From a virus: a DNA stretch of 64,000 bases. Shown here one piece after another: positions 50,502 to 62,739 of the stretch. Location of the stretch: IMG/VR virus record IMGVR_UViG_3300042090_002405, positions 17,288 through 81,287 of that record, one strand, 5' to 3'. Made by a program: the position numbers and the translations under genes. The notes under the pieces were generated by a model. The model was not told where the DNA came from. It worked only from the letters and a program-made list of their open reading frames with translations, and made no database searches. Numbering within the stretch: the first letter of the stretch is position 1; each line of letters opens with the position of its first letter.

Positions 50502-51851
50502 TCAGCCGGCCGACTGAGGCGCCATGATCGTCGGCAGGTTGGTCTGGCAGTACGCCTTCCACCCGCCGGGCATCTCCCAGCCCTTCAGCTTGATCGCGAG
50601 CTTCAGCACACCGCCCTTGAAGACCTCGCGGCAGGTGTTGACGTCCTGCCGAACGAGACCGGGGACGGTATCGAGCGTTTGCTCGAGCATCTGGTTCTGA
50701 ATTCCGGCAGTGAGCGGGGACGTCGGCACCGAGTTGGAGCTAGAGGCCGAAATCCCCGTGTTGCACGTGAGGTTCACGTCCGCACTAATGTTCGTGCCGA
50801 GAGGCTCGTTTGTGATCGTGAGGGCCTCGAGCATGGATGCCTGGTGCACGGCGTCCTGCGCGACGAAGAGCATCCCGATGGGGATACCGCGCTCGAGGAA
50901 GCACGGGCTCTCCACGGGGCGATACATCTGCCCGCGGCACCCGTACCCCTGCCACCGGAGACCGCCCCAAGTGACCGGCGCGAGATCGTAGTCGCGGGTC
51001 GGGTGGAAGATGCCGACGTTCAGCACATTGGCAGGCGCCGTGGCGTTTCCGCTGTAGCCGACGCTGCCGACGCGGCGATGCGTGACCGGCAAGAAGATCG
51101 TGCCGGATCCCTTTGCGCGGTAGTTCGCGTTGACCTGCGCCACGTACTCGATCACGGGGACCTCGGACGTGCCGGACGCCATGGCGTCCGCGAACGAGCC
51201 GAAGTAGGAGACGTCCGCGGCGAGCTCGTTCAGCACGAGTTCCCTCTGCGACGTCTTCCATTGGAACTGGTAGGCGTTGATGAAGTTCCACCCCGCGCGC
51301 CACACTTCCGAGCCCCACGCGAGATCAGCCGGCGTGAGGACGGTCCCGGCAAACGTACCGACCGGGGGGATCCCCGTTCCGGTGTTGCCACCGAGGGCAC
51401 CGCCAATCTGATCATTGAGCGTGAAGACATCCGGCGAAGGGGGAGGCGTCGTCGTCGTGGCGGGTGCCGCGAAGGCGTTGCCGATCGTCGAGAAGCTCAT
51501 CGGCTCGCAGAACACGTGCACGCCTACGCCCTGCGTGAGGATGTCCGTCTGGAGAATGCCGTTGATCAGGAACGTGCTGTCGATGCTCTGGACGCCCGGG
51601 ACAGACGAAGAGCCCGACAACAGATTGACCGTGTCGCCGAAGGTCGCGGTTGCTTCCTCGATCGTGAGCGGCAAGGGGATCGTCCACACGACCTCCTCGA
51701 TCACGGGAATATTGCCGAAGGAGCAACGAAGGCACTTCTCCGCAGCGCCGAGAGTCCCGGGGGCTTCCCCGAGACCAAACGGCACGCGGCGCACCTTCTC
51801 GCGATCCTGACCCCACTTCGCGGACTTTTTACCGATAATGGAACGTGACAT
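50502..51851 (-). CDS. Putative large jelly-roll major capsid protein
   Basis: STFLINGILQTDILTQGVGVHV, YRPVESPCFLERGIPIGMLF, LKLAIKLKGWE; strongly GC3-biased codons and its own terminator. Confidence 0.55.
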   Translation of the reverse strand: MSRSIIGKKSAKWGQDREKVRRVPFGLGEAPGTLGAAEKCLRCSFGNIPVIEEVVWTIPLPLTIEEATATFGDTVNLLSGSSSVPGVQSIDSTFLINGILQTDILTQGVGVHVFCEPMSFSTIGNAFAAPATTTTPPPSPDVFTLNDQIGGALGGNTGTGIPPVGTFAGTVLTPADLAWGSEVWRAGWNFINAYQFQWKTSQRELVLNELAADVSYFGSFADAMASGTSEVPVIEYVAQVNANYRAKGSGTIFLPVTHRRVGSVGYSGNATAPANVLNVGIFHPTRDYDLAPVTWGGLRWQGYGCRGQMYRPVESPCFLERGIPIGMLFVAQDAVHQASMLEALTITNEPLGTNISADVNLTCNTGISASSSNSVPTSPLTAGIQNQMLEQTLDTVPGLVRQDVNTCREVFKGGVLKLAIKLKGWEMPGGWKAYCQTNLPTIMAPQSAG

Positions 51852-51953: not shown

Positions 51954-54059
51954 TCAAGAGAGGACGAGAGAGTCCTTTTCCTCGTCGCCGATGAAGCCGA
52001 GGAAGCTGTTGTTTTCGCCGACGCAACCGCAGCCTTCACCGCCCGCGGAGTTCATGGGGACGGGGCCAGGGCCTGGTGTTGCGGGAGGGCCGGGTGAATA
52101 GGTCGGCGGCCCGACTGGATTTGCCGGAGGCGGGGCGGTCGGGAGTGCTCCGTCGCCTGCTGCCGGCGGTGCAGCGGAAGCATCGGCCGGCGGGGGCTCC
52201 CCTCCACCGCCACCATCAGCCGGCGCATCGCTAACGCCACCCTGGATGGGGGGTGCGGGAGGCGCAACCGGAGAAGCGGGGGACTCGTAGAGGTACGGGT
52301 AGTGCCCATACGGATGGGCAAGACACCACGCGTGGAGCTGCGCATCCGTGTACGTCGGGTACAGACCCTTCGCGCGCGCCATGCAGTGGTGATGGTGGTG
52401 CTTGTGGTGTGGCGCCGTACCGGGCGCACTCGGGATGGCGTAAGGAGTGTTGAATCCAGCGCGCGACCAACGGTTGCTCAAGTTCGCGAAGTGCGCGACC
52501 CCGCCGGGCCTGTACATCGGATGGGAGAACTGAAACCGCGACGCTCCGGGAGGGGCAGGACGGCGGACATAACCGAGTCCGGCTTCATGACGGAGGGCCT
52601 GAGCAGCAGACGGGTAATTCTCGTTGTCGCTCACCCCGGCTTGTCGCCGAAAAACCTGAACCGCATCGGGGTAGGGCGAATCACCACCGAGGGCTAGAGG
52701 GCCGACATCGCCAATCGGAGCGGACGAAAGGGCCCCGAAAGACTGTCCACTCGCGGACGTTGTGGCGGAATCGAGATTCAGCTTCGCGGCCACTTCCGAG
52801 GGATACAGACGCGCGATGACGCTTCCCTGCAAAGCAGAGGTATCTTTCGGCGCGAGCATCGGGACAACCACGTTCGTCCAAAGCGTCGTGAACGCCTTCA
52901 CCCCCGCGCCAAGAGCCACGGCTTCAAGAGAAGCCTTCAGGTAATGGTTCTTGACATGCCCCGATGCAATCGCGGGAACGACGATCGCACCAGCCAGCGC
53001 GAGAGCGCGGTGCAGATGCGGGGGCGATGCGACGTTGAGGGCGTTGGCCATGGTACCAGCGCCGTCGGACGTGAACTTGTTCGTGGGCTTCTCGTCTCCC
53101 GCGGGGTTATAGGTTGCAAGATACCGATCGAGCGCATCGGACAACGAGTAACCAATGCCGATCGACACGGCCGAGATGGCGAGTCTTCCGACTGACTTGA
53201 CCGCTCCGCCGATGCCGGCGCGTGCGTAGTGACGGCGCGTCGCACGAACGCGACGAGCGGGCGTCCGAACAGCGTGCACCCGGCGACGACGCGACCGCAC
53301 CCGACGGCTCGGGGCCTGCACCAAGATCTCACGTACGCGCGTGCGCGTCCGCGTACGAACCTTGTTCGCGCTCGCCCTACGGTGTCGGCGACGTGCGCGG
53401 ACCACCGAAGTAGCCGCATGCACCCGACGACGCCGACGCGCCATCACCCGACGCGGAGCAGCAGCTCGAACCCGCGCACGAACCCGACGCCGCCGACGCG
53501 CTACCGGAGCGGCGGCGCGCACCCTGCGTCGTGCTCGCGCCCGAACAACCGTGGACGCACGCACCTTGCGCGCCGCACGGGCTTTCCGGTGACGCTTGCG
53601 CGCACGCACGACCGGCGTAGCTGCGTGCACTCGACGACGACGGGTGGAGCGGACCTTCTTCGAGCTGCGAGCGCGATGCTTGACGACCATGTGATCCTCT
53701 TCTCGTGCGATGACGGCCTGAATTCCTCGGCCAAACAGGATGGTCCGGAAGGTTTTTAGGCCCCTTGGAGAGAACTGCCGGAGGCGAATGTGCTGATCGG
53801 TCGTGTGCACCTTGCCGTGGTGGTAGCCGTGAGCTTTCGCCCAGGCCTTTGCGGCGGAAGGTGTCCACTGTTGTCGGTCGAACAGGAGCGACTGAACGTC
53901 CGCGCGCGGATGTGACGCGGGGGCCGCACGGGTGACACGACGGCGGAACGCGCCGGCAGCGACCCGACGGGACGCAGCACGACTACGGCGTGCAGAGACG
54001 CCACGCTCTTCTTGCGTTTCCTCTTCATACCGAGCGAGCCGGTCGTCATAGAGACCCAT
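51954..54059 (-). CDS. Arg-rich DNA-condensing core-like protein with TM segments and a Pro-rich tail
   Basis: About 155 aa of RRV[RH]A repeats; N-terminal VQSLLFD..W...AKAWAKAHGY...IRLRQF.P domain. Confidence 0.7.
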   Translation of the reverse strand: MGLYDDRLARYEEETQEERGVSARRSRAASRRVAAGAFRRRVTRAAPASHPRADVQSLLFDRQQWTPSAAKAWAKAHGYHHGKVHTTDQHIRLRQFSPRGLKTFRTILFGRGIQAVIAREEDHMVVKHRARSSKKVRSTRRRRVHAATPVVRARKRHRKARAARKVRASTVVRARARRRVRAAAPVARRRRRVRARVRAAAPRRVMARRRRRVHAATSVVRARRRHRRASANKVRTRTRTRVREILVQAPSRRVRSRRRRVHAVRTPARRVRATRRHYARAGIGGAVKSVGRLAISAVSIGIGYSLSDALDRYLATYNPAGDEKPTNKFTSDGAGTMANALNVASPPHLHRALALAGAIVVPAIASGHVKNHYLKASLEAVALGAGVKAFTTLWTNVVVPMLAPKDTSALQGSVIARLYPSEVAAKLNLDSATTSASGQSFGALSSAPIGDVGPLALGGDSPYPDAVQVFRRQAGVSDNENYPSAAQALRHEAGLGYVRRPAPPGASRFQFSHPMYRPGGVAHFANLSNRWSRAGFNTPYAIPSAPGTAPHHKHHHHHCMARAKGLYPTYTDAQLHAWCLAHPYGHYPYLYESPASPVAPPAPPIQGGVSDAPADGGGGGEPPPADASAAPPAAGDGALPTAPPPANPVGPPTYSPGPPATPGPGPVPMNSAGGEGCGCVGENNSFLGFIGDEEKDSLVLS

Positions 54060-54329
54060 GCCACGACTCGACTAAGGTTTTCGGGGCGTCTTTGTCGCGT
54101 CAATCCTTATGTTTTCGGGCGGTCCGTGCGCGGTGCACGCGGAGTGATTAGGGTACGCGCCTGGCGTGCGCCGTCAGCCGGTAAGCTGTCGGGGAAAGCC
54201 GCGGATCCAAACCGTATAGTTCGTATGGGTCGGCTGTTAATGCGCCGCACGCAGACGGGCGGCAGACGATCGTCGGAATCGTTCCGTGTAGTCCGCCTCT
54301 TTCGAGAGAATTGTATTCCGGTTGTATTA

Positions 54330-54992
54330 CTACCGGATTCCGGGATACCGCAGACCCGGCGCGCTCATCGGGCTACCTGACACGCCGACATCCTTTTCGC
54401 TCATCCCGACGAAGTCACCGACGCCTTTTTCTTTGGCGTCTTTGCCGGGCTCCAGCCACCACTCGCGAAGATGCTGCGCGGTCTGACCCACGGGGTGATT
54501 TGTAGTGCCGTCCGTGCGCACCCAGTTGTCGAGCTCGTCCTGGAAGGCACAGAACACATGCGTGGGAACGTCGGCCGGTTCCTTGTGACTGCTCCCAATA
54601 ATCATCGCGGGGATCCCGATACTCATGTATGCCGCCGCAAGTAGTACGCTGTACTCGTCACAATCAATGCCCTTTATGCAAAGGCCTTTTTCTTTGTCGA
54701 GACACAGAATTTGATCGGGCGTTGCGATGAACTCCCCCATGAGAGGGTCGGCGACGTAGAAAGTTTGATTCCTCGCCGCATCCAAGATCGCTGTCACCTT
54801 TTGACGACGTCCTCCCTTCGCGGCGCCGGCCTTGTCGATCACCTGTGTCGTCCATGCACGAAGCCGGGGGGACATCCGCGCCTTCCATGCGCGATCGGCC
54901 GTCTCTTGAAGCGAGATCTTCGCGCCTCGTGCGCCGGCAGGATGAGACCTCGCATCAGTCTGGATCCCCTCGAGAGGTTTCTCTTGAATCAC
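54330..54992 (-). CDS. Transglutaminase-fold cysteine protease
   Basis: IDCDEYSVLLAA...IGIP (Cys), THVF (His), WVRTDGT (Asp). Confidence 0.8.
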   Translation of the reverse strand: MIQEKPLEGIQTDARSHPAGARGAKISLQETADRAWKARMSPRLRAWTTQVIDKAGAAKGGRRQKVTAILDAARNQTFYVADPLMGEFIATPDQILCLDKEKGLCIKGIDCDEYSVLLAAAYMSIGIPAMIIGSSHKEPADVPTHVFCAFQDELDNWVRTDGTTNHPVGQTAQHLREWWLEPGKDAKEKGVGDFVGMSEKDVGVSGSPMSAPGLRYPGIR

Positions 54993-59023: not shown

Positions 59024-59442
59024 GCGATAGAGCCAGTCGGAGCGGCGTGGTCGCGATGGACGTGGTTGATGATCTGCTGCGAGGGTTGCTGGGCTTCCCC
59101 AAGGGACACCGCCGCATCGGCGCTGCCGAACGCGACGAAGTTGCCCGCGCTCTCGGTCTGCACGACGAACTCCTCCAAGGGCACGTCTGTAACGATGAGC
59201 CGCACGTCCTTGTCATCCAGGATCGGGCGAAAGCGCACGCCGCCATCGAGCACAATATTTTGGATCTGCACAGGCAACACCACGGACCCCACGACGATGT
59301 CGGCGCTCACATCTTTGCCGACCGCGTCGACGAGGACAAACTTCGTCGTGTTCCGCGTCTCGTCGGGCCGGACGATGGAGGAGAGGACACGCTTGATCAC
59401 GATGCGGCCCAAGATCTGGGAACGACGGGGGATGAATTTCAC
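59020..59442 (-). CDS. GroES/Cpn10-like co-chaperonin
   Basis: MKFIPRRSQILGR...SSIVRPD...VDAVGKDV..IVVGSVVL...ILDDKDV. Confidence 0.55.
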   Translation of the reverse strand: MKFIPRRSQILGRIVIKRVLSSIVRPDETRNTTKFVLVDAVGKDVSADIVVGSVVLPVQIQNIVLDGGVRFRPILDDKDVRLIVTDVPLEEFVVQTESAGNFVAFGSADAAVSLGEAQQPSQQIINHVHRDHAAPTGSIA

Positions 59443-60062
59443 GGAGCTCTCCTTGTCTTCGGCTTCTGCCCGGCCTTCTTCTTGGTCTTCTTCGTGGTCT
59501 TCTGCTTCTTGGTCTTCTTTTTCTTGGGCTCTTCGAAGTCCGCCATGAACGCCCTGAGCGCCCTCGTCTTTGACGCCGTCGCTTCGGTGAGCAGCGACAC
59601 GGGGCCGGCTTCGAGTGTGGCCACGAGGGACAATGCTGTCGAGGTCGTGGCCCCCCCTTGCGAGGCCTTCCGAAGCTCCTCGAGCTCCGCTTGACACGCC
59701 ATGAAATCGGCGATGACTTCCGAAAAATGCTCCCGCGACGGGGCGTAGTACGGGCCCTCCGCCAGCCGCTTAGCATCGAGAGGTGCAAACTGCCGCGCCG
59801 CCGTAAGGATCACAAGAGCACTCATGCGCATCTCCCGATCGCGGCAAGCTGACACGCACGCTACTTTTTCGTCCGCCTTGCCGGGGCAGGTCTCCACGTG
59901 CCGGCATTTCTCGAGAATCGAAGCGGCCTCTTGCACAGCGATCTGCCAAGCGACCTTCGACCGCCAAAGCTGGCGGCGCACGCCGTCCCAGTGCCGTACG
60001 AAGACAGATACCTTCTCGTCGCCGGGCGTGGCCAGCCCCATCATTCTGTCGTTGTTCATCAT
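59439..60062 (-). CDS. Hypothetical protein with a Lys-rich tail
   Basis: Cys cluster; KKKKTKK C-terminus. Confidence 0.65.
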   Translation of the reverse strand: MMNNDRMMGLATPGDEKVSVFVRHWDGVRRQLWRSKVAWQIAVQEAASILEKCRHVETCPGKADEKVACVSACRDREMRMSALVILTAARQFAPLDAKRLAEGPYYAPSREHFSEVIADFMACQAELEELRKASQGGATTSTALSLVATLEAGPVSLLTEATASKTRALRAFMADFEEPKKKKTKKQKTTKKTKKKAGQKPKTRRAP

Positions 60063-60071
60063 CCCCGTTCC

Positions 60072-60311
60072 TCAGATCGTCTTTCCGTTGGGCTCCTTGA
60101 TCCTTAGGTAGCCCTCGCTCGTCTGGTGCCGATCCGCTGCCTGAAGCAAGATCGACCGCATCCATACGCTGATCTTCACGCCGCATTGCTGCGCGCGCTG
60201 ATCTACGTTCCGATATTGCTCCGGCGTCATCTTCAGCGTGACGACCTTAGTTTTCGCGGAGACAGCGGTGTGTGCCATCAGGAGGGAGGCCAATCGGATG
60301 GCCGTCGGCAT
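60072..60311 (-). CDS. RHH regulator
   Basis: KVVTLKMTPEQYRNVDQRAQQCGVKISVWMRSILL. Confidence 0.75.
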   Translation of the reverse strand: MPTAIRLASLLMAHTAVSAKTKVVTLKMTPEQYRNVDQRAQQCGVKISVWMRSILLQAADRHQTSEGYLRIKEPNGKTI

Positions 60312-60386
60312 ACTGCTCTCTGGTTTCGCATCTCGTCAAGACGGATAGTTGATGAGGCGCCAAAAAAAAAGCGCTACTCTTCTCTC

Positions 60387-60605
60387 GTGACTGGGCACAT
60401 TCGTCGAGGAGATCGCTTCACGGTGGGCTTCGGGCAAGCCATGATCACGGCCCCGCTTCTAGCTACGGGTGCCGCCGCTGGTGAACCGTCGCCGTGGGCT
60501 ATGGCGCTGGCGACGACGGCGTTCGGCGTGGCGACTGGATGGGTGCTCGACGAGGTGTCGCACCGGATGCGCGGCGGCAAAGGTCGAAGAAGCCGAGGAC
60601 GATGA
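60387..60605 (+). CDS. Small membrane protein with the GF motif
   Basis: MTGHIRRGDRFTVGFGQ...TM...basic tail. Confidence 0.55.
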   Translation: MTGHIRRGDRFTVGFGQAMITAPLLATGAAAGEPSPWAMALATTAFGVATGWVLDEVSHRMRGGKGRRSRGR

Positions 60606-61051
60606 CCATGGAACATGTGCGACTTGGAAATCGACGCGTGGCAGGGTTCGATGTCGGCGTGGGGGGCCTCTTCGACATCTTCGGCGGAGGAAGTGGGACG
60701 AGTCCCAATCCGGCCTATCAAGCTACTGCCACGATCACTGGGCAAAAAGTAGATCCGAACGCGCCCCCGGACGCCCCCGCCGGCCCGACAGTCCAGGATG
60801 CTTGCGCCAACATCCCGACTTGGGCCCAAGCCATCGCCGGCTGTTCAAACGCCAACGTCAAACCCGCGCCGGGTCAAAGTGTGGCGACAGCGCCTGCATC
60901 GCCGTTGACATTGTTCTTCGGGGGCGGCGTGGATGCAAACGGCAACCCGATCCAGACCCCGCTCCAATGGCTGGAAGCCCACAAGACAGCGATTGCGATC
61001 GGCGGCGCCGTCTTCGCTGGAATCGTCGTCTACGGGGCCATACGGCGATGA
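60602..61051 (+). CDS. C-terminally anchored virion membrane protein
   Basis: VRLGNRRVAGFDVGVGG...TM+RR. Confidence 0.65.
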   Translation: MTMEHVRLGNRRVAGFDVGVGGLFDIFGGGSGTSPNPAYQATATITGQKVDPNAPPDAPAGPTVQDACANIPTWAQAIAGCSNANVKPAPGQSVATAPASPLTLFFGGGVDANGNPIQTPLQWLEAHKTAIAIGGAVFAGIVVYGAIRR

Positions 61052-61438: not shown

Positions 61439-61873
61439 ATGAATACGGTCACGTCCATCGCTCGACTCCTGGTGCGCCCATCTGCCCGAACGATGGGGCA
61501 CTCGGTCGCCGCATTGTCCGTAAAGCAGACACTGCCATCTCTCATCACGACTATAGGGCACGCCTGTACGGTGGCCTGGCTAACGACGGGGGCTTACTGG
61601 CTAGCGTTCGCCGGCCTCGCATGTGACATGCTCGATGGGGCGGTTGCGCGACACCTTGACGTCGTATCCGAGTTCGGTGCGCTCTATGACTGGACGGTAG
61701 ACGTCACGATGGCGGCGATAATTTGCCTCGTTGCGCTGCACGCACCATGGCTCTTGATCGCTTTGGTTCCGATCGCTGTCTGGTGTAAGCGACGAGGTCT
61801 TCGTTTTTCGGGGCGGGCCGCGTTGACGTTGCTTGCGGTAGGTCTAGGGTGGAGGGGCGGGGTGCCGTGGTAA
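61439..61873 (+). CDS. CDP-alcohol phosphatidyltransferase
   Basis: Complete signature DMLDGAVAR-x5-SEFGALYDWTVD within a multi-TM protein. Confidence 0.85.
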   Translation: MNTVTSIARLLVRPSARTMGHSVAALSVKQTLPSLITTIGHACTVAWLTTGAYWLAFAGLACDMLDGAVARHLDVVSEFGALYDWTVDVTMAAIICLVALHAPWLLIALVPIAVWCKRRGLRFSGRAALTLLAVGLGWRGGVPW

Positions 61874-62739
61874 TCCGTCGAGGCGACAAGATCGTACGAG
61901 GGTTCGCCCTCGGCGCCGACGACTCCGTCGACGCTCTCGTCGCGAGCAAGCTGTCGGAGCTCGGTTACGGTTCCGTGTCCGACTTTCAGAAGGCAAAGGG
62001 ACTAACTGTCGACGGCGTTGCCGGGCACGACACCCTGACAGCGATGGGACTCGGGTACCTCTTCGATCTCTCTTCGAGGGGGATGCTTTCTTCGGGGCAA
62101 ACCCAGCTCGAAACGAAAAACACACCGCTTACCCCCGAGCAAGCTGCGCAGGCACTCAGCGAGGGCTACCAGTCCATCACCGGCTCTGTACCGTCCCCGG
62201 ACGTTCTGTCGTTGCTACTCGCGCAGTCCGGGCACGAAACAGCCAACTGGCAAAAGCTCCCCAACTACGCCTTCGGGGGCGTAAAAGCGACATCCGGAAC
62301 GCCCTACGTCCAGGCCTTCGTTACCCCCGAGGGGGATCCGCCGAAACATTACGTGCTGGCTTTCGCGGCGTACCCCACGGCGGCGGCGGGGGCAAAGGCG
62401 TACATCCGAACACTGAAGAACCGATCGGCATGGTGGGACGGGCTTCAGAGCGGCGTCCCGCAGACCTTCGTCGACGCTTTGGTGAGCATCCCCGGAGCGC
62501 TCTACTTTACCGGCAATGCCGGGGACTACCTCGCGAGCATGCAAACCCGCGTGCAGCAATTCGCCGATCTCGCAAAAGAGTACGCAAGGCCACTCGCGCG
62601 GCCCGCTCAGGCGGCCGCCGCGGTCGTTGCGCCGTACATCGCGCCGATCGTGCAAAACCCAAAACGTGCACTTGCGGTCGCGGCGGGGGTCGTGGCGGTC
62701 GCTACCGCGGCGGCGTGGATCGCGACTCGTCGCCGGTAG
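61867..62739 (+). CDS. Membrane-anchored PGBD + GH73/FlgJ-like muramidase
   Basis: FQKAKGLTVDGVAGHDT; AQSGHETANW..YAFGGVK..FAAYPT..YFT; C-terminal TM+RRR. Confidence 0.8.
   Translation: MVIRRGDKIVRGFALGADDSVDALVASKLSELGYGSVSDFQKAKGLTVDGVAGHDTLTAMGLGYLFDLSSRGMLSSGQTQLETKNTPLTPEQAAQALSEGYQSITGSVPSPDVLSLLLAQSGHETANWQKLPNYAFGGVKATSGTPYVQAFVTPEGDPPKHYVLAFAAYPTAAAGAKAYIRTLKNRSAWWDGLQSGVPQTFVDALVSIPGALYFTGNAGDYLASMQTRVQQFADLAKEYARPLARPAQAAAAVVAPYIAPIVQNPKRALAVAAGVVAVATAAAWIATRRR

What the first reader, a model, noticed from the sequence alone, without database searches (positions are those of the whole stretch)
51954..54059. Protamine/adenovirus pVII-like Arg-rich core protein fused to membrane helices
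Seen: a tract of about 155 aa of RRV[RHM]A-type repeats, then three hydrophobic segments and a His/Pro-rich tail. It sits immediately upstream of the capsid candidate and has an internal RBS-ATG near 53690. Inference: it condenses the genome and tethers it to the internal membrane, giving a chromatin-like core that is unusual for bacterial viruses.
Basis: partly seen in the sequence, partly recalled or inferred. Interest (0 to 1): 0.75.

Follow-up and report, generated by a model that had tools for sequence, protein, structure and literature searches.

The report
Membrane-anchored polybasic virion protein
A real, widely conserved gene of an uncultivated 81-kb tailless bacterial virus encodes a protein with a long, strongly positive arginine-rich arm joined to three probable membrane helices. 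It most likely binds the viral DNA and ties it to the particle's lipid layer, a way of packing DNA not described for bacterial viruses, but no binding has been shown.

Summary
ORF 51954-54059 (-) encodes 701 aa. It has an Arg tract (aa 125-281, net about +66, almost no acidic residues), three hydrophobic helices, a His run, a Pro-rich tail and an internal ATG at 53690.

The feared GC-driven shadow frame is refuted. In 25 of 25 related viral loci with enough upstream DNA, one ORF just before the capsid gene joins the same conserved end domains through a basic tract. In 60 of 60 distant relatives the tract stays polybasic while R:K swings from Arg-dominated to Lys-dominated. A second strain differs by in-frame 9-nt and 6-nt indels.

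All 137 relatives with the N-domain keep a Met 2-9 residues after it. All 17 distinct locus sequences checked, and the window, have a Shine-Dalgarno-like motif before that Met. A shorter isoform is therefore likely.

There is no homology to adenovirus pVII or to any Pfam, PHROG, PDB or deposited-phage entry.

Function is inferred: a membrane-anchored polycation that neutralises the genome in a virus with no recognisable packaging ATPase (confidence about 0.45). Rivals are a capsid-membrane cement or tape measure, a DNA-delivery protein and a replication tether.

The scan noted the same family on another genome (e1-6063976) and a similar architecture in e1-5978985.

The parts
54075..54103 (-). 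Promoter-like element: -35 TTGACG (54103-54098), 17-nt spacer, -10-like AAACCT (54080-54075). It leaves only 15 nt between the -10-like hexamer and the ATG, so the leader has no Shine-Dalgarno motif.
   Evidence: In alignment A5 of 13 upstream regions, TTGAC is present in 9 and TGGAC in 3, at a fixed distance from the ATG, followed by a TGAAAGCCT-like element. Coordinates verified. The generic promoter scan missed it. That it is a promoter is inferred.
54012..54059 (-). Start codon (54059-54057) and conserved N-terminal peptide MGLYDDRL... (aa 1-16).
   Evidence: The same peptide begins most full-length relatives. Distant relatives keep an M..SY..(K/R)M..FR version.
53694..53903 (-). Small alpha/beta N-domain (aa 53-122; QSLLF..WT..KAWAK.HGY..VTDQ.IR.RQ..GI.AV.ARE).
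   Evidence: A1: 18 sequences, 75% mean column identity. AF2 gives one helix plus 3 strands at pLDDT 58.8. No Pfam, PDB or Foldseek match. ESM-Atlas structure look-alikes (TM 0.81-0.85) are ~70-77-aa viral proteins and a domain in Mu-like_Pro proteins. The domain also exists as stand-alone 67-128-aa proteins. It is absent from 5 related loci.
53688..53702 (-). Internal Shine-Dalgarno-like GAAGAGGA (53702-53695) and ATG of Met124 (53690-53688). Probable second start, giving a 578-aa product without the N-domain.
   Evidence: 137 of 137 distinct relatives with the N-domain have a Met 2-9 residues after the ARE motif; about 15% would be expected from background Met frequency. All 17 distinct locus sequences examined, and the window, have a purine-rich SD-like motif before that ATG. 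M1 has none.
53217..53687 (-). Polybasic Arg tract, aa 125-281 (net about +66). Three RRRRVHA-type units lie at aa 140, 209 and 257.
   Evidence: In 136 relatives the tract is 126-265 aa, R 19-43%, K 3-19%, net +48 to +92. In 60 of 60 distant relatives it is still polybasic, with R:K from 0.42:0.04 to 0.02:0.23. A second strain (run X2) has in-frame indels of 9 nt at 53383 and 6 nt at 53495.
53115..53204 (-). Hydrophobic helix 1 (aa 286-315), ending in the conserved DRYLATYNP motif.
   Evidence: AF2 helix, model residues 2-31, pLDDT 72-88. Family mean KD 1.5, up to 1.91 in relatives. D, R, Y and P of the motif are invariant in A3.
52854..53015 (-). Hydrophobic helical hairpin: helix 2 (aa 349-368, 53015-52956) and helix 3 (aa 372-402, 52946-52854).
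   Evidence: AF2 helices, model residues 65-84 and 88-118, pLDDT 83-89. Mean KD 1.3. The best structural matches are transmembrane helices of transporters, Z 8.2-8.8, which is within the noise level for helical models.
52755..52829 (-). Conserved amphipathic segment (aa 411-435; ...IARLYPSEVAA.LN).
   Evidence: R, Y, P, E and N are invariant in A3. AF2 helix, model residues 136-151. KD about 0.4.
52587..52682 (-). Two copies of the (D)SPYPDA.QALR-type peptide repeat (aa 460-491).
   Evidence: 137 of 151 relatives have 1-3 copies. Alignment A2.
52386..52409 (-). His run HHKHHHHH (aa 551-558). Clade-specific.
   Evidence: Among the 23 aligned sequences only the window and L001 have it.
52056..52292 (-). 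Pro/Gly/Ala-rich low-complexity linker (aa 590-668).
   Evidence: P 23-38% per 40-aa window. Variable in length among relatives.
51984..52031 (-). Conserved C-terminal motif CGC[IV]G..N.FLGF[IV]GD (aa 677-692).
   Evidence: Present within the last 70 aa in at least 98 of 151 relatives, whatever the protein length (442-1205 aa).
51954..51956 (-). Stop codon. The capsid candidate starts 102 nt downstream, at 51851.
   Evidence: Gaps of 48-153 nt in 25 related loci. An RNA-library contig spans 51558-52054.

Best explanation
The ORF is a genuine gene of a conserved, undescribed protein family: 301 clusters at 50% identity in 1.84 billion representatives.

The protein is modular:
- an N-terminal peptide;
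- an optional small alpha/beta domain;
- a polycationic tract of 126-265 aa in close relatives (97-397 basic residues precede the core in distant ones), probably disordered, with a net charge of about +48 to +92 in close relatives and up to +138 in distant ones;
- three hydrophobic helices, probably membrane-embedded;
- an amphipathic helix;
- a Pro/Gly-rich linker with short peptide repeats;
- a conserved Cys-containing C-terminal motif.

The gene appears to head a late transcription unit with the capsid gene, behind its own promoter-like element and a very short leader. It probably yields two products, the full-length protein and a form started at Met124.

Most likely mechanism (inferred): the hydrophobic helices sit in the virion's lipid layer. 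The polycationic arm binds and neutralises the viral dsDNA on one face. The C-terminal part reaches toward the protein shell on the other face. The genome would thus be condensed and coupled to the membrane during concerted assembly, in a virus with no recognisable packaging ATPase. The protein would work like adenovirus pVII, baculovirus P6.9 or the SPV1 nucleoprotein core, without being related to them.

Shown: the gene, its frame, its architecture, its synteny, and selection on charge. Inferred: membrane insertion, DNA binding, presence in virions, and the two isoforms.
For: Frame and gene:
- Conserved N- and C-terminal modules are joined in frame through a basic tract in dozens of homologues.
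- Arg codons are mixed and there is no DNA tandem repeat.
- A second strain carries two in-frame indels.

Selection on charge:
- R+K stays at about 42% while R:K varies widely.
- 60 of 60 distant homologues are polybasic, some Lys-dominated.

Structural module:
- The gene lies immediately upstream of the capsid gene in 25 of 25 loci.
- Neighbouring capsid-module proteins are only mildly acidic (net -1 to -12), so no protein polyanion partner is evident.

Membrane:
- Three conserved hydrophobic helices are predicted at pLDDT 72-89.
- Neighbouring genes encode tail-anchored TM+RRR proteins and carry a CDP-alcohol phosphatidyltransferase signature.

No motor:
- The genome is rated 98% complete by CheckV, and FtsK, Pox_A32 and Terminase_6N profiles find nothing.
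- The Walker-A ORFs are an SF1-type helicase, a Sak4-like ATPase, a D5 primase-helicase and an AAA_5-like ATPase.

Precedents and other support:
- PM2 is thought to enclose its DNA while a DNA-interacting membrane patch pinches off (PMC6356626).
- SPV1 has a nucleoprotein core inside a membrane (PMC8459092).
- pVII is Arg- and Ala-rich (PMC7998265).
- Tract length rises with contig length (rho 0.65, n=17, uncorrected).
- RNA-library contigs match parts of the gene.
Against: - There is no experimental or proteomic evidence that the protein is in virions or binds DNA.
- The hydrophobic helices are marginal: KD is below 1.6 in the window, and crude apparent free energies are positive.
- The internal membrane of this virus is itself only inferred.
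- A +66 arm cannot cross a membrane, so it stays on the cytoplasmic face. In PRD1-type vesicle budding (PMC6356626) that face looks at the capsid, not at the DNA.
- GC3 of the gene (0.67) is lower than that of the capsid gene (0.85), which does not suggest very high expression.
- RNA-library contigs do not cover the Arg tract and may derive from DNA.
- The genome-size correlation is driven by one clade and by contigs of unknown completeness.
- Absence of a packaging ATPase rests on profile searches only.
Confidence: 0.45

Rival explanations
1. Capsid-membrane cement or tape measure. The basic arm lies on the capsid-facing (originally cytoplasmic) side of the internal membrane. There it binds lipid head groups and the inner capsid surface, and helps to set or stabilise the size of a large shell, as the extended minor proteins of PRD1 (P30) or the chloroviruses do.
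For: - The positive-inside rule plus PRD1-type budding puts the arm on the capsid side (PMC6356626).
- The tract is extended, of low complexity and variable in length.
- Tract length and whole-protein length rise with contig length (rho 0.65 and 0.75).
- The gene directly precedes the capsid gene.
Against: - Capsid-module proteins carry only small negative charges, net -1 to -12, a poor match for +48 to +138 per copy.
- Known tape-measure proteins are not polycations, as far as I recall.
- Conservation of charge with free R/K exchange is typical of binding to nucleic acids.
- The conserved C-terminal motif and peptide repeats on the opposite side of the helices are better candidates for capsid contacts.
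Confidence: 0.2
2. Genome-delivery (pilot or ejection) protein. The arm rides on the DNA, and the hydrophobic helices with the C-terminal region insert into the host envelope at entry to form or extend a conduit. This would resemble the membrane proteins that build the PRD1 tube.
For: - Marginally hydrophobic, Gly/Ala-rich helices with small-xxx-small spacing fit membrane-active, oligomerising segments.
- The gene lies in the structural module.
- PRD1 uses its internal membrane and membrane proteins for delivery (PMC3782422, abstract listed).
Against: - A pilot function needs few copies and would hardly need +48 to +138 charges, nor scale with genome size.
- There is no similarity to any known ejection or tube protein.
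- This reading overlaps with, rather than excludes, DNA binding inside the virion.
Confidence: 0.12
3. Non-structural membrane tether. The protein would attach replicating or maturing viral DNA to the host membrane or to an assembly site, and would not itself be packaged. As I recall, phage phi29 p16.7 does this.
For: A membrane anchor plus a nucleic-acid-binding arm is exactly the architecture of such tethers. There is no evidence that the protein is in virions.
Against: - Invariant position at the head of the capsid gene cluster, behind a conserved promoter-like element, not in the replication module.
- Large size, with conserved C-terminal motifs that suggest structural contacts.
Confidence: 0.1
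4. The Arg tract is a GC-driven shadow frame or mis-joined ORF, and the real product is only the 441-aa C-terminal part that one gene caller reported.
For: - One database holds only a 441-aa call starting at Val261 (P0001).
- Arg-rich shadow frames are frequent in high-GC DNA.
- GC3 of the tract (0.65) is not elevated.
Against: - Conserved domains on both sides of the tract are in the same frame in dozens of homologues.
- Tract length varies only by whole codons.
- R is replaced by K in relatives.
- The strain indels of 9 and 6 nt are in frame.
- Short database entries that carry only the N-domain run on into the tract and look like fragments.
Confidence: 0.01

Closest known systems
Adenovirus core protein VII (pVII), with pX/Mu and V
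   Same: A highly basic Arg- and Ala-rich polycation (pVII: R 23%, A 19%; PMC7998265), encoded among late structural genes. A cysteine-protease-like gene lies nearby (weak Transglut_core hit). The presumed role is charge neutralisation and condensation of a dsDNA genome inside an icosahedral, jelly-roll-type particle.
   Different: There is no sequence or profile similarity. pVII is a small soluble protein with no membrane segments. Adenoviruses have no internal membrane and do have a packaging ATPase. Relatives of the window protein can be Lys-dominated. Cleavage is not shown here.
Portogloboviridae (SPV1) nucleocapsid protein VP1 and its nucleoprotein core
   Same: [quoted passage not shown] This is the closest known virion plan if the reading is right.
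   Different: SPV1 is an archaeal virus with a 20-kb circular genome. I know of no evidence that VP1 is fused to membrane helices. Homology was not testable because no VP1 sequence was at hand; searches of deposited virus records found nothing.
Corticovirus PM2 assembly model (membrane proteins P3/P6, DNA-interacting membrane patch)
   Same: In this bacterial internal-membrane virus, a virus-specific membrane area is thought to interact with the nucleic acid and to pinch off with the genome inside, concurrently with shell formation (PMC6356626). That is the kind of assembly the polybasic membrane protein would serve.
   Different: PM2 is 10 kb, with a supercoiled circular genome. The review does not mention a basic or DNA-binding membrane protein. 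There is no sequence similarity.
Protamines, baculovirus P6.9 and WSSV VP15-type viral protamine-like proteins
   Same: Arg-rich tracts with almost no acidic residues, used to compact dsDNA (PMC5899202 and PMC11654684 for P6.9, listed).
   Different: Those are small proteins consisting almost entirely of the basic tract (from memory), in eukaryotes and their viruses. They have no membrane anchor and no flanking conserved domains. Not homologous.
Mu-like prophage protein I family (PF10123), whose members carry a small extra domain, and nested in-frame products in phage head genes
   Same: The N-domain (aa 53-122) has structure look-alikes (TM 0.81) in a part of Mu-like_Pro proteins and in ~70-77-aa viral proteins. 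The gene also seems to make a shorter product from an internal in-frame start. As I recall, Mu gene I and lambda C/Nu3 do the same.
   Different: This is only a language-model and structure lead with no alignment. There is no Pfam hit to PF10123. The function of that small domain is unknown.

Membership tests
Adenovirus core protein VII (Pfam Adeno_VII) | Sequence or profile similarity to the family | tested here: not met
   hmmscan of the 701-aa protein against Pfam-A at E<=0.1 gave only a spurious LisH_PAC1 hit. PHROGs gave none.
Adenovirus core protein VII (Pfam Adeno_VII) | Highly basic, Arg- and Ala-rich composition | tested here: met
   Window tract: R 37%, A 19%, D+E 2%, net about +64 to +66. 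pVII: R 23%, A 19% (PMC7998265).
Adenovirus core protein VII (Pfam Adeno_VII) | Soluble core protein without membrane segments | tested here: not met
   Three conserved hydrophobic helices follow the tract.
Adenovirus core protein VII (Pfam Adeno_VII) | Precursor trimmed by the viral protease; mature form bound to DNA in the virion core | not testable with these tools
   This needs virion proteomics and N-terminal mapping. Only a weak Transglut_core hit (E 0.0023, below cut-off) marks the upstream gene as a possible protease.
Protamine / baculovirus P6.9-type proteins | Small protein made almost wholly of an Arg-dominated tract | tested here: not met
   The protein is 701 aa with six or more modules. 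In relatives the tract can be Lys-dominated, R 0.02 / K 0.23.
Portogloboviridae VP1 nucleocapsid protein | Sequence similarity | tested here: inconclusive
tblastn of the N-domain and of the core against 50,697 deposited phage and archaeal-virus records found no match. The low-complexity tract cannot be searched meaningfully.
Integral membrane protein | Hydrophobic segments of transmembrane length and hydrophobicity | tested here: inconclusive
   AF2 predicts helices of 30, 20 and 31 residues at pLDDT 72-89. The best 19-aa KD is 1.56 in the window; family means are 1.3-1.5, up to 1.97. The top structural matches are transporter TM helices, but Z 8-9 is within noise for helical models.
Integral membrane protein | Charge distribution that fits the positive-inside rule | tested here: met
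   A net charge of about +66 lies directly N-terminal of helix 1, and the core itself is neutral. The orientation (N-terminus in the cytoplasm) is inferred, not measured.
HU/IHF (JGI's name for relative P0017) | Bacterial DNA-binding (HU) domain | tested here: not met
   P0017 has no precomputed Pfam domain, and the window protein has no such hit. The name probably reflects the basic, low-complexity tract.

The most novel reading that the evidence does not exclude
This family is the main genome-packing device of a new lineage of large (about 60-125 kb) tailless bacterial viruses that have no packaging motor. Hundreds of copies of a membrane-anchored polycation would condense the dsDNA on a membrane patch, and membrane and jelly-roll shell would close around it. 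That would give a chromatin-like nucleoprotein core, so far known only from archaeal and eukaryotic viruses. Nested isoforms (with and without the N-domain) and the C-terminal motif would link core, membrane and shell.
Probability: 0.3. Interest if true: 0.85.

Novelty: new variant of a known kind. Interest (0 to 1): 0.62.

Why it matters
Known bacterial dsDNA viruses either pump naked DNA into a preformed shell with an ATPase or, as proposed for PM2, enclose it as the membrane vesicle forms. I found no description of a virus-encoded polycationic core protein for them: one review of membrane-containing phages mentions none, and the NO16 virion study reports only host histone-like proteins of uncertain status.

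A conserved polycation fused to membrane helices, always next to the capsid gene, in viruses where no packaging ATPase can be found, makes motor-free, protein-mediated DNA condensation in a bacterial virus directly testable. It also offers a bacterial counterpart to adenovirus, baculovirus and SPV1 cores, which bears on how concerted assembly evolved among jelly-roll viruses.

Practically, gene callers truncate or split this gene (a 441-aa call in one database). The family is therefore under-annotated.

Tried and rejected
- Pfam and PHROGs on the whole protein, the N-domain and the core: nothing significant. Weak Ish1 (HeH-like) hits in 11 of 18 N-domains, best E 0.0012, and one Lsr2_DNA-bd hit at E 0.012, all far below cut-off. 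I treat these as a lead only.
- A profile search of the N-domain (A1) against PDB sequences found nothing.
- Foldseek of the N-domain model against PDB, and of the core model against BFVD: no match at E<=0.001.
- VIA-align of the core model: Z 8-9 to transporter TM helices, not above the level usual for helical models.
- tblastn of the capsid, N-domain and core against 50,697 phage records: no match.
- Genome contigs: only two MAG contigs (Candidatus Binatia, Polyangiaceae), too few to name a host.
- TRF: no tandem array in the tract.
- tRNA scan, looking for a viral tRNA-Arg: none.
- The generic promoter scan found nothing. The conserved TTGAC element showed up only in the alignment.
- Stand-alone N-domain genes lie in other unannotated contigs. 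They are followed by a CmpB-like membrane protein, and no capsid or core homologue is nearby, so they give no functional clue.
- RNA-library contigs leave the Arg tract and the 5' part uncovered. This cannot be interpreted.
- The 'hydrophobic-x-x-Asn' junction code reported for other genomes (e1-5942402, e1-5978985) does not apply to this clade. In distant relatives 60% of tract Asn are followed by Pro. In the close family Asn is rare and only 4 of 109 are followed by Pro, and the window tract has a single Asn.
- The correlation of tract length with contig length was not corrected for phylogeny or completeness. I do not use it to choose between models.
Full report
OBSERVATION. The window is 64 kb of a single 81,287-bp IMG/VR virus record (linear, CheckV completeness 98%). 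ORF 51954..54059 on the minus strand encodes 701 aa. M1 lies four codons after the upstream in-frame stop. Residues 125-281 have 37-45% Arg, about 19% Ala, about 15% Val and almost no acidic residues, with a net charge of +66. Three hydrophobic stretches follow (aa 286-315, 349-368, 372-402). Then come a His run (551-558), a Pro/Gly/Ala-rich tail (590-668) and a Cys-containing C-terminal motif. The capsid candidate 50502..51851 starts 102 nt downstream. The 'repeats' are degenerate: TRF finds no array, and the RRRRVHA-type unit occurs three times at in-frame spacings of 48 and 69 codons with only 62-72% DNA identity.

IS IT MORE THAN A SHADOW FRAME? Composition alone would not decide. The tract is the most basic 150-aa window among 194 six-frame ORFs of the genome (R+K 0.44, D+E 0.01), but other, probably non-coding, frames reach 0.30-0.37. 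Arg-rich shadow frames abound in other high-GC loci.

The comparative evidence is decisive:
- A search with aa 280-600 found 85 homologues. Nearly all full-length ones have the same order of parts, all in one frame: MGLYDDRL peptide, QSLLF domain, a 160-330-aa R/K tract, then the DRYLATYNP core.
- In all 25 related viral loci with enough upstream DNA, the longest ORF ending 48-153 nt before the capsid gene has this architecture.
- In 136 distinct relatives the tract is 126-265 aa, with R 19-43%, K 3-19% and net +48 to +92.
- A profile of the hydrophobic core found 301 clusters (E<=0.001) among 1.84 billion representatives. All 60 distant hits with at least 60 residues before the core are polybasic there (net +23 to +138). 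Their R:K ratio runs from 0.42:0.04 to 0.02:0.23. Charge, not sequence or GC content, is what is kept.
- Arg codons are mixed: CGT 24, CGC 15, CGG 14, CGA 5.
- A near-identical strain in another wetland sample differs inside the tract by a 9-nt deletion and a 6-nt insertion, both in frame.
- One database holds only a 441-aa call from Val261 (P0001). That is a gene-caller truncation.

ANATOMY.
- N-domain (aa 53-122). It is highly conserved (75% mean column identity) and folds at low confidence as one helix plus three strands. It has no Pfam, PDB or Foldseek match. ESM-Atlas structure look-alikes are small viral proteins and a part of Mu-like_Pro proteins (a lead only). The domain also exists as stand-alone 67-128-aa proteins. 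Five related loci lack it.
- Hydrophobic core (A3, 51% column identity). It is predicted as helices of 30, 20 and 31 residues at pLDDT 72-89, plus an amphipathic helix. Hydrophobicity is marginal, with family mean KD 1.3-1.5. The segments are Gly/Ala-rich.
- C-terminal part. The (D)SPYPDA.QALR peptide occurs 1-3 times in most relatives. The C-terminal motif CGC[IV]G..N.FLGF[IV]GD is kept whatever the protein length.

STARTS AND TRANSCRIPTION. All 137 distinct relatives with the N-domain have a Met 2-9 residues after the ARE motif, at varying offsets; about 15% would be expected by chance. All 17 distinct locus sequences checked, and the window, have a purine-rich SD-like motif before that ATG. 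In the window it is GAAGAGGA, 4 nt before ATG 53690.

M1 has no SD. It is preceded by a conserved TTGAC (-35-like) element and a TGAAAGCCT-like element at fixed distance, which leaves a very short leader. I infer a dedicated promoter, short-leader initiation at M1 and SD-dependent initiation at Met124, giving two nested products.

RNA-library contigs from an independent wetland metatranscriptome match parts of the gene at >=99%. One bridges its 3' end and the capsid gene's 5' end. That shows presence in an RNA library, not proven transcription.

CONTEXT. The neighbourhood is almost entirely unannotated. The genome also carries a D5 primase-helicase, an SNF2 helicase, an integrase, a Sak4-like ATPase, an SF1-type helicase and an AAA_5-like ATPase. 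FtsK, Pox_A32 and Terminase_6N profiles find nothing. Nearby genes encode tail-anchored proteins ending in TM+RRR, a peptidoglycan-binding protein, and an intact DG(x2)AR(x8)G(x3)D(x3)D lipid-synthase signature. All of this is consistent with a membrane-containing particle, but that remains unproven.

MECHANISM. The best reading is a membrane-anchored polycation that binds the viral dsDNA and couples it to the lipid layer during concerted assembly. The Pro-rich linker and C-terminal motif would sit on the other face, toward the shell.

Arguments for it:
- selection on charge with free R/K exchange;
- lack of an acidic protein partner among the capsid-module proteins;
- the invariant position before the capsid gene;
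- the missing motor;
- the precedents of PM2's DNA-interacting membrane patch (PMC6356626), SPV1's nucleoprotein core inside a membrane (PMC8459092) and Arg/Ala-rich pVII at 500-800 copies per virion (PMC7998265).

By my own arithmetic, about 1,300 copies would neutralise half of the 162,574 phosphates of the 81,287-bp genome.

The main difficulty is topology. The arm must stay on the cytoplasmic face, which in PRD1-type budding faces the capsid (PMC6356626). This keeps a cement or tape-measure role alive (0.2). A delivery role (0.12) and a non-structural DNA tether (0.1) also remain possible. The rise of tract length with contig length (rho 0.65, n=17) fits several models and is not phylogeny-corrected.

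COMPARISON AND NOVELTY. The protein is not a member of the pVII or protamine families. There is no profile similarity, it has membrane helices, and relatives can be Lys-dominated. It may work like them. No deposited phage has a relative. The review of membrane-containing phages mentions no basic or DNA-binding core protein, and the NO16 virion study reports only host histone-like proteins of uncertain status. I class it as a new variant of a known kind: viral polycationic genome-condensing proteins, here fused to a membrane anchor in a bacterial virus.

The scan has noted the same family on another genome (e1-6063976) and a similar architecture elsewhere (e1-5978985). The Asn-junction code described there is seen as Asn-Pro in distant relatives but not in this clade.

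LIMITS. Both structure models are of modest confidence. DNA binding, membrane insertion, virion location and isoforms are all inferred.

Noticed in passing
window 54060-54330: The intergenic region between the transglutaminase-like gene and the target is about 270 nt, and about 300 nt in relative L009. Its last 45 nt carry a conserved TTGAC...TGAAAGCCT...CCGTGAC-ATG element. The rest was not analysed for RNA structure.
   Followed up: partly
L050:5992-6297, L053:6001-6312 (metagenome contigs): The N-domain also occurs as a stand-alone gene of about 100 codons in other unannotated, virus-like contigs. There it is followed by a membrane protein with a Pfam ABC_trans_CmpB hit. No capsid or core homologue lies within 6 kb.
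   Followed up: partly
window 59439-60062 (-): A 207-aa ORF in the same module ends in a Lys-rich tail of about 30 aa (KKKKTKKQKTTKKTKKK...). It is a possible second basic protein of the particle.
   Followed up: no
window 60494-61051 (+), 61849-62739 (+), 60126-60605 (+): Several ORFs end in a hydrophobic helix followed by RR/RRR, that is, tail-anchored with a basic tip. One of them carries a peptidoglycan-binding domain. If these basic tips face the DNA together with the Arg arm, they would define the inner face of the membrane.
   Followed up: partly
window 61439-61873 (+): A 144-aa multi-helix ORF has an intact CDP-alcohol phosphatidyltransferase signature, DG(x2)AR(x8)G(x3)D(x3)D, read by eye from the translation.
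   Followed up: partly
L032:5842-7167 (-) (genome 5842-7167, outside the window): A 441-aa P-loop protein matches PHROG 1297 'ATPase'. By language-model look-alikes it resembles AAA_5/MoxR-type ATPases of tailed phages. It is the only ATPase of unknown role in the genome, so a packaging role is not formally excluded.
   Followed up: partly
window 53383-53500: A near-identical strain from another wetland sample (run X2) differs inside the Arg tract by a 9-nt deletion, a 6-nt insertion and three substitutions, which I read as amino-acid changing. Only one other difference (54154) was listed in the laid 4-kb stretch. The tract evolves fast while staying in frame.
   Followed up: yes
window 52045: One RNA-library contig carries an 18-nt T-rich loose end on the + strand, which is A-rich on the gene's strand, inside the Pro-rich region. 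It may be a polyadenylated decay fragment or an artefact.
   Followed up: no
relatives P0060 and L009 (tract region): About a third of close relatives (42-46 of 130) have a conserved non-basic island inside the tract, ..EAW(R/K)GDSAGH.KAA.KG... Many also have RE(A/V)P...EA(K/R)R punctuation units. The window has neither, and instead has V(H/R)A(A/V)(A/T)(P/S) five times.
   Followed up: partly
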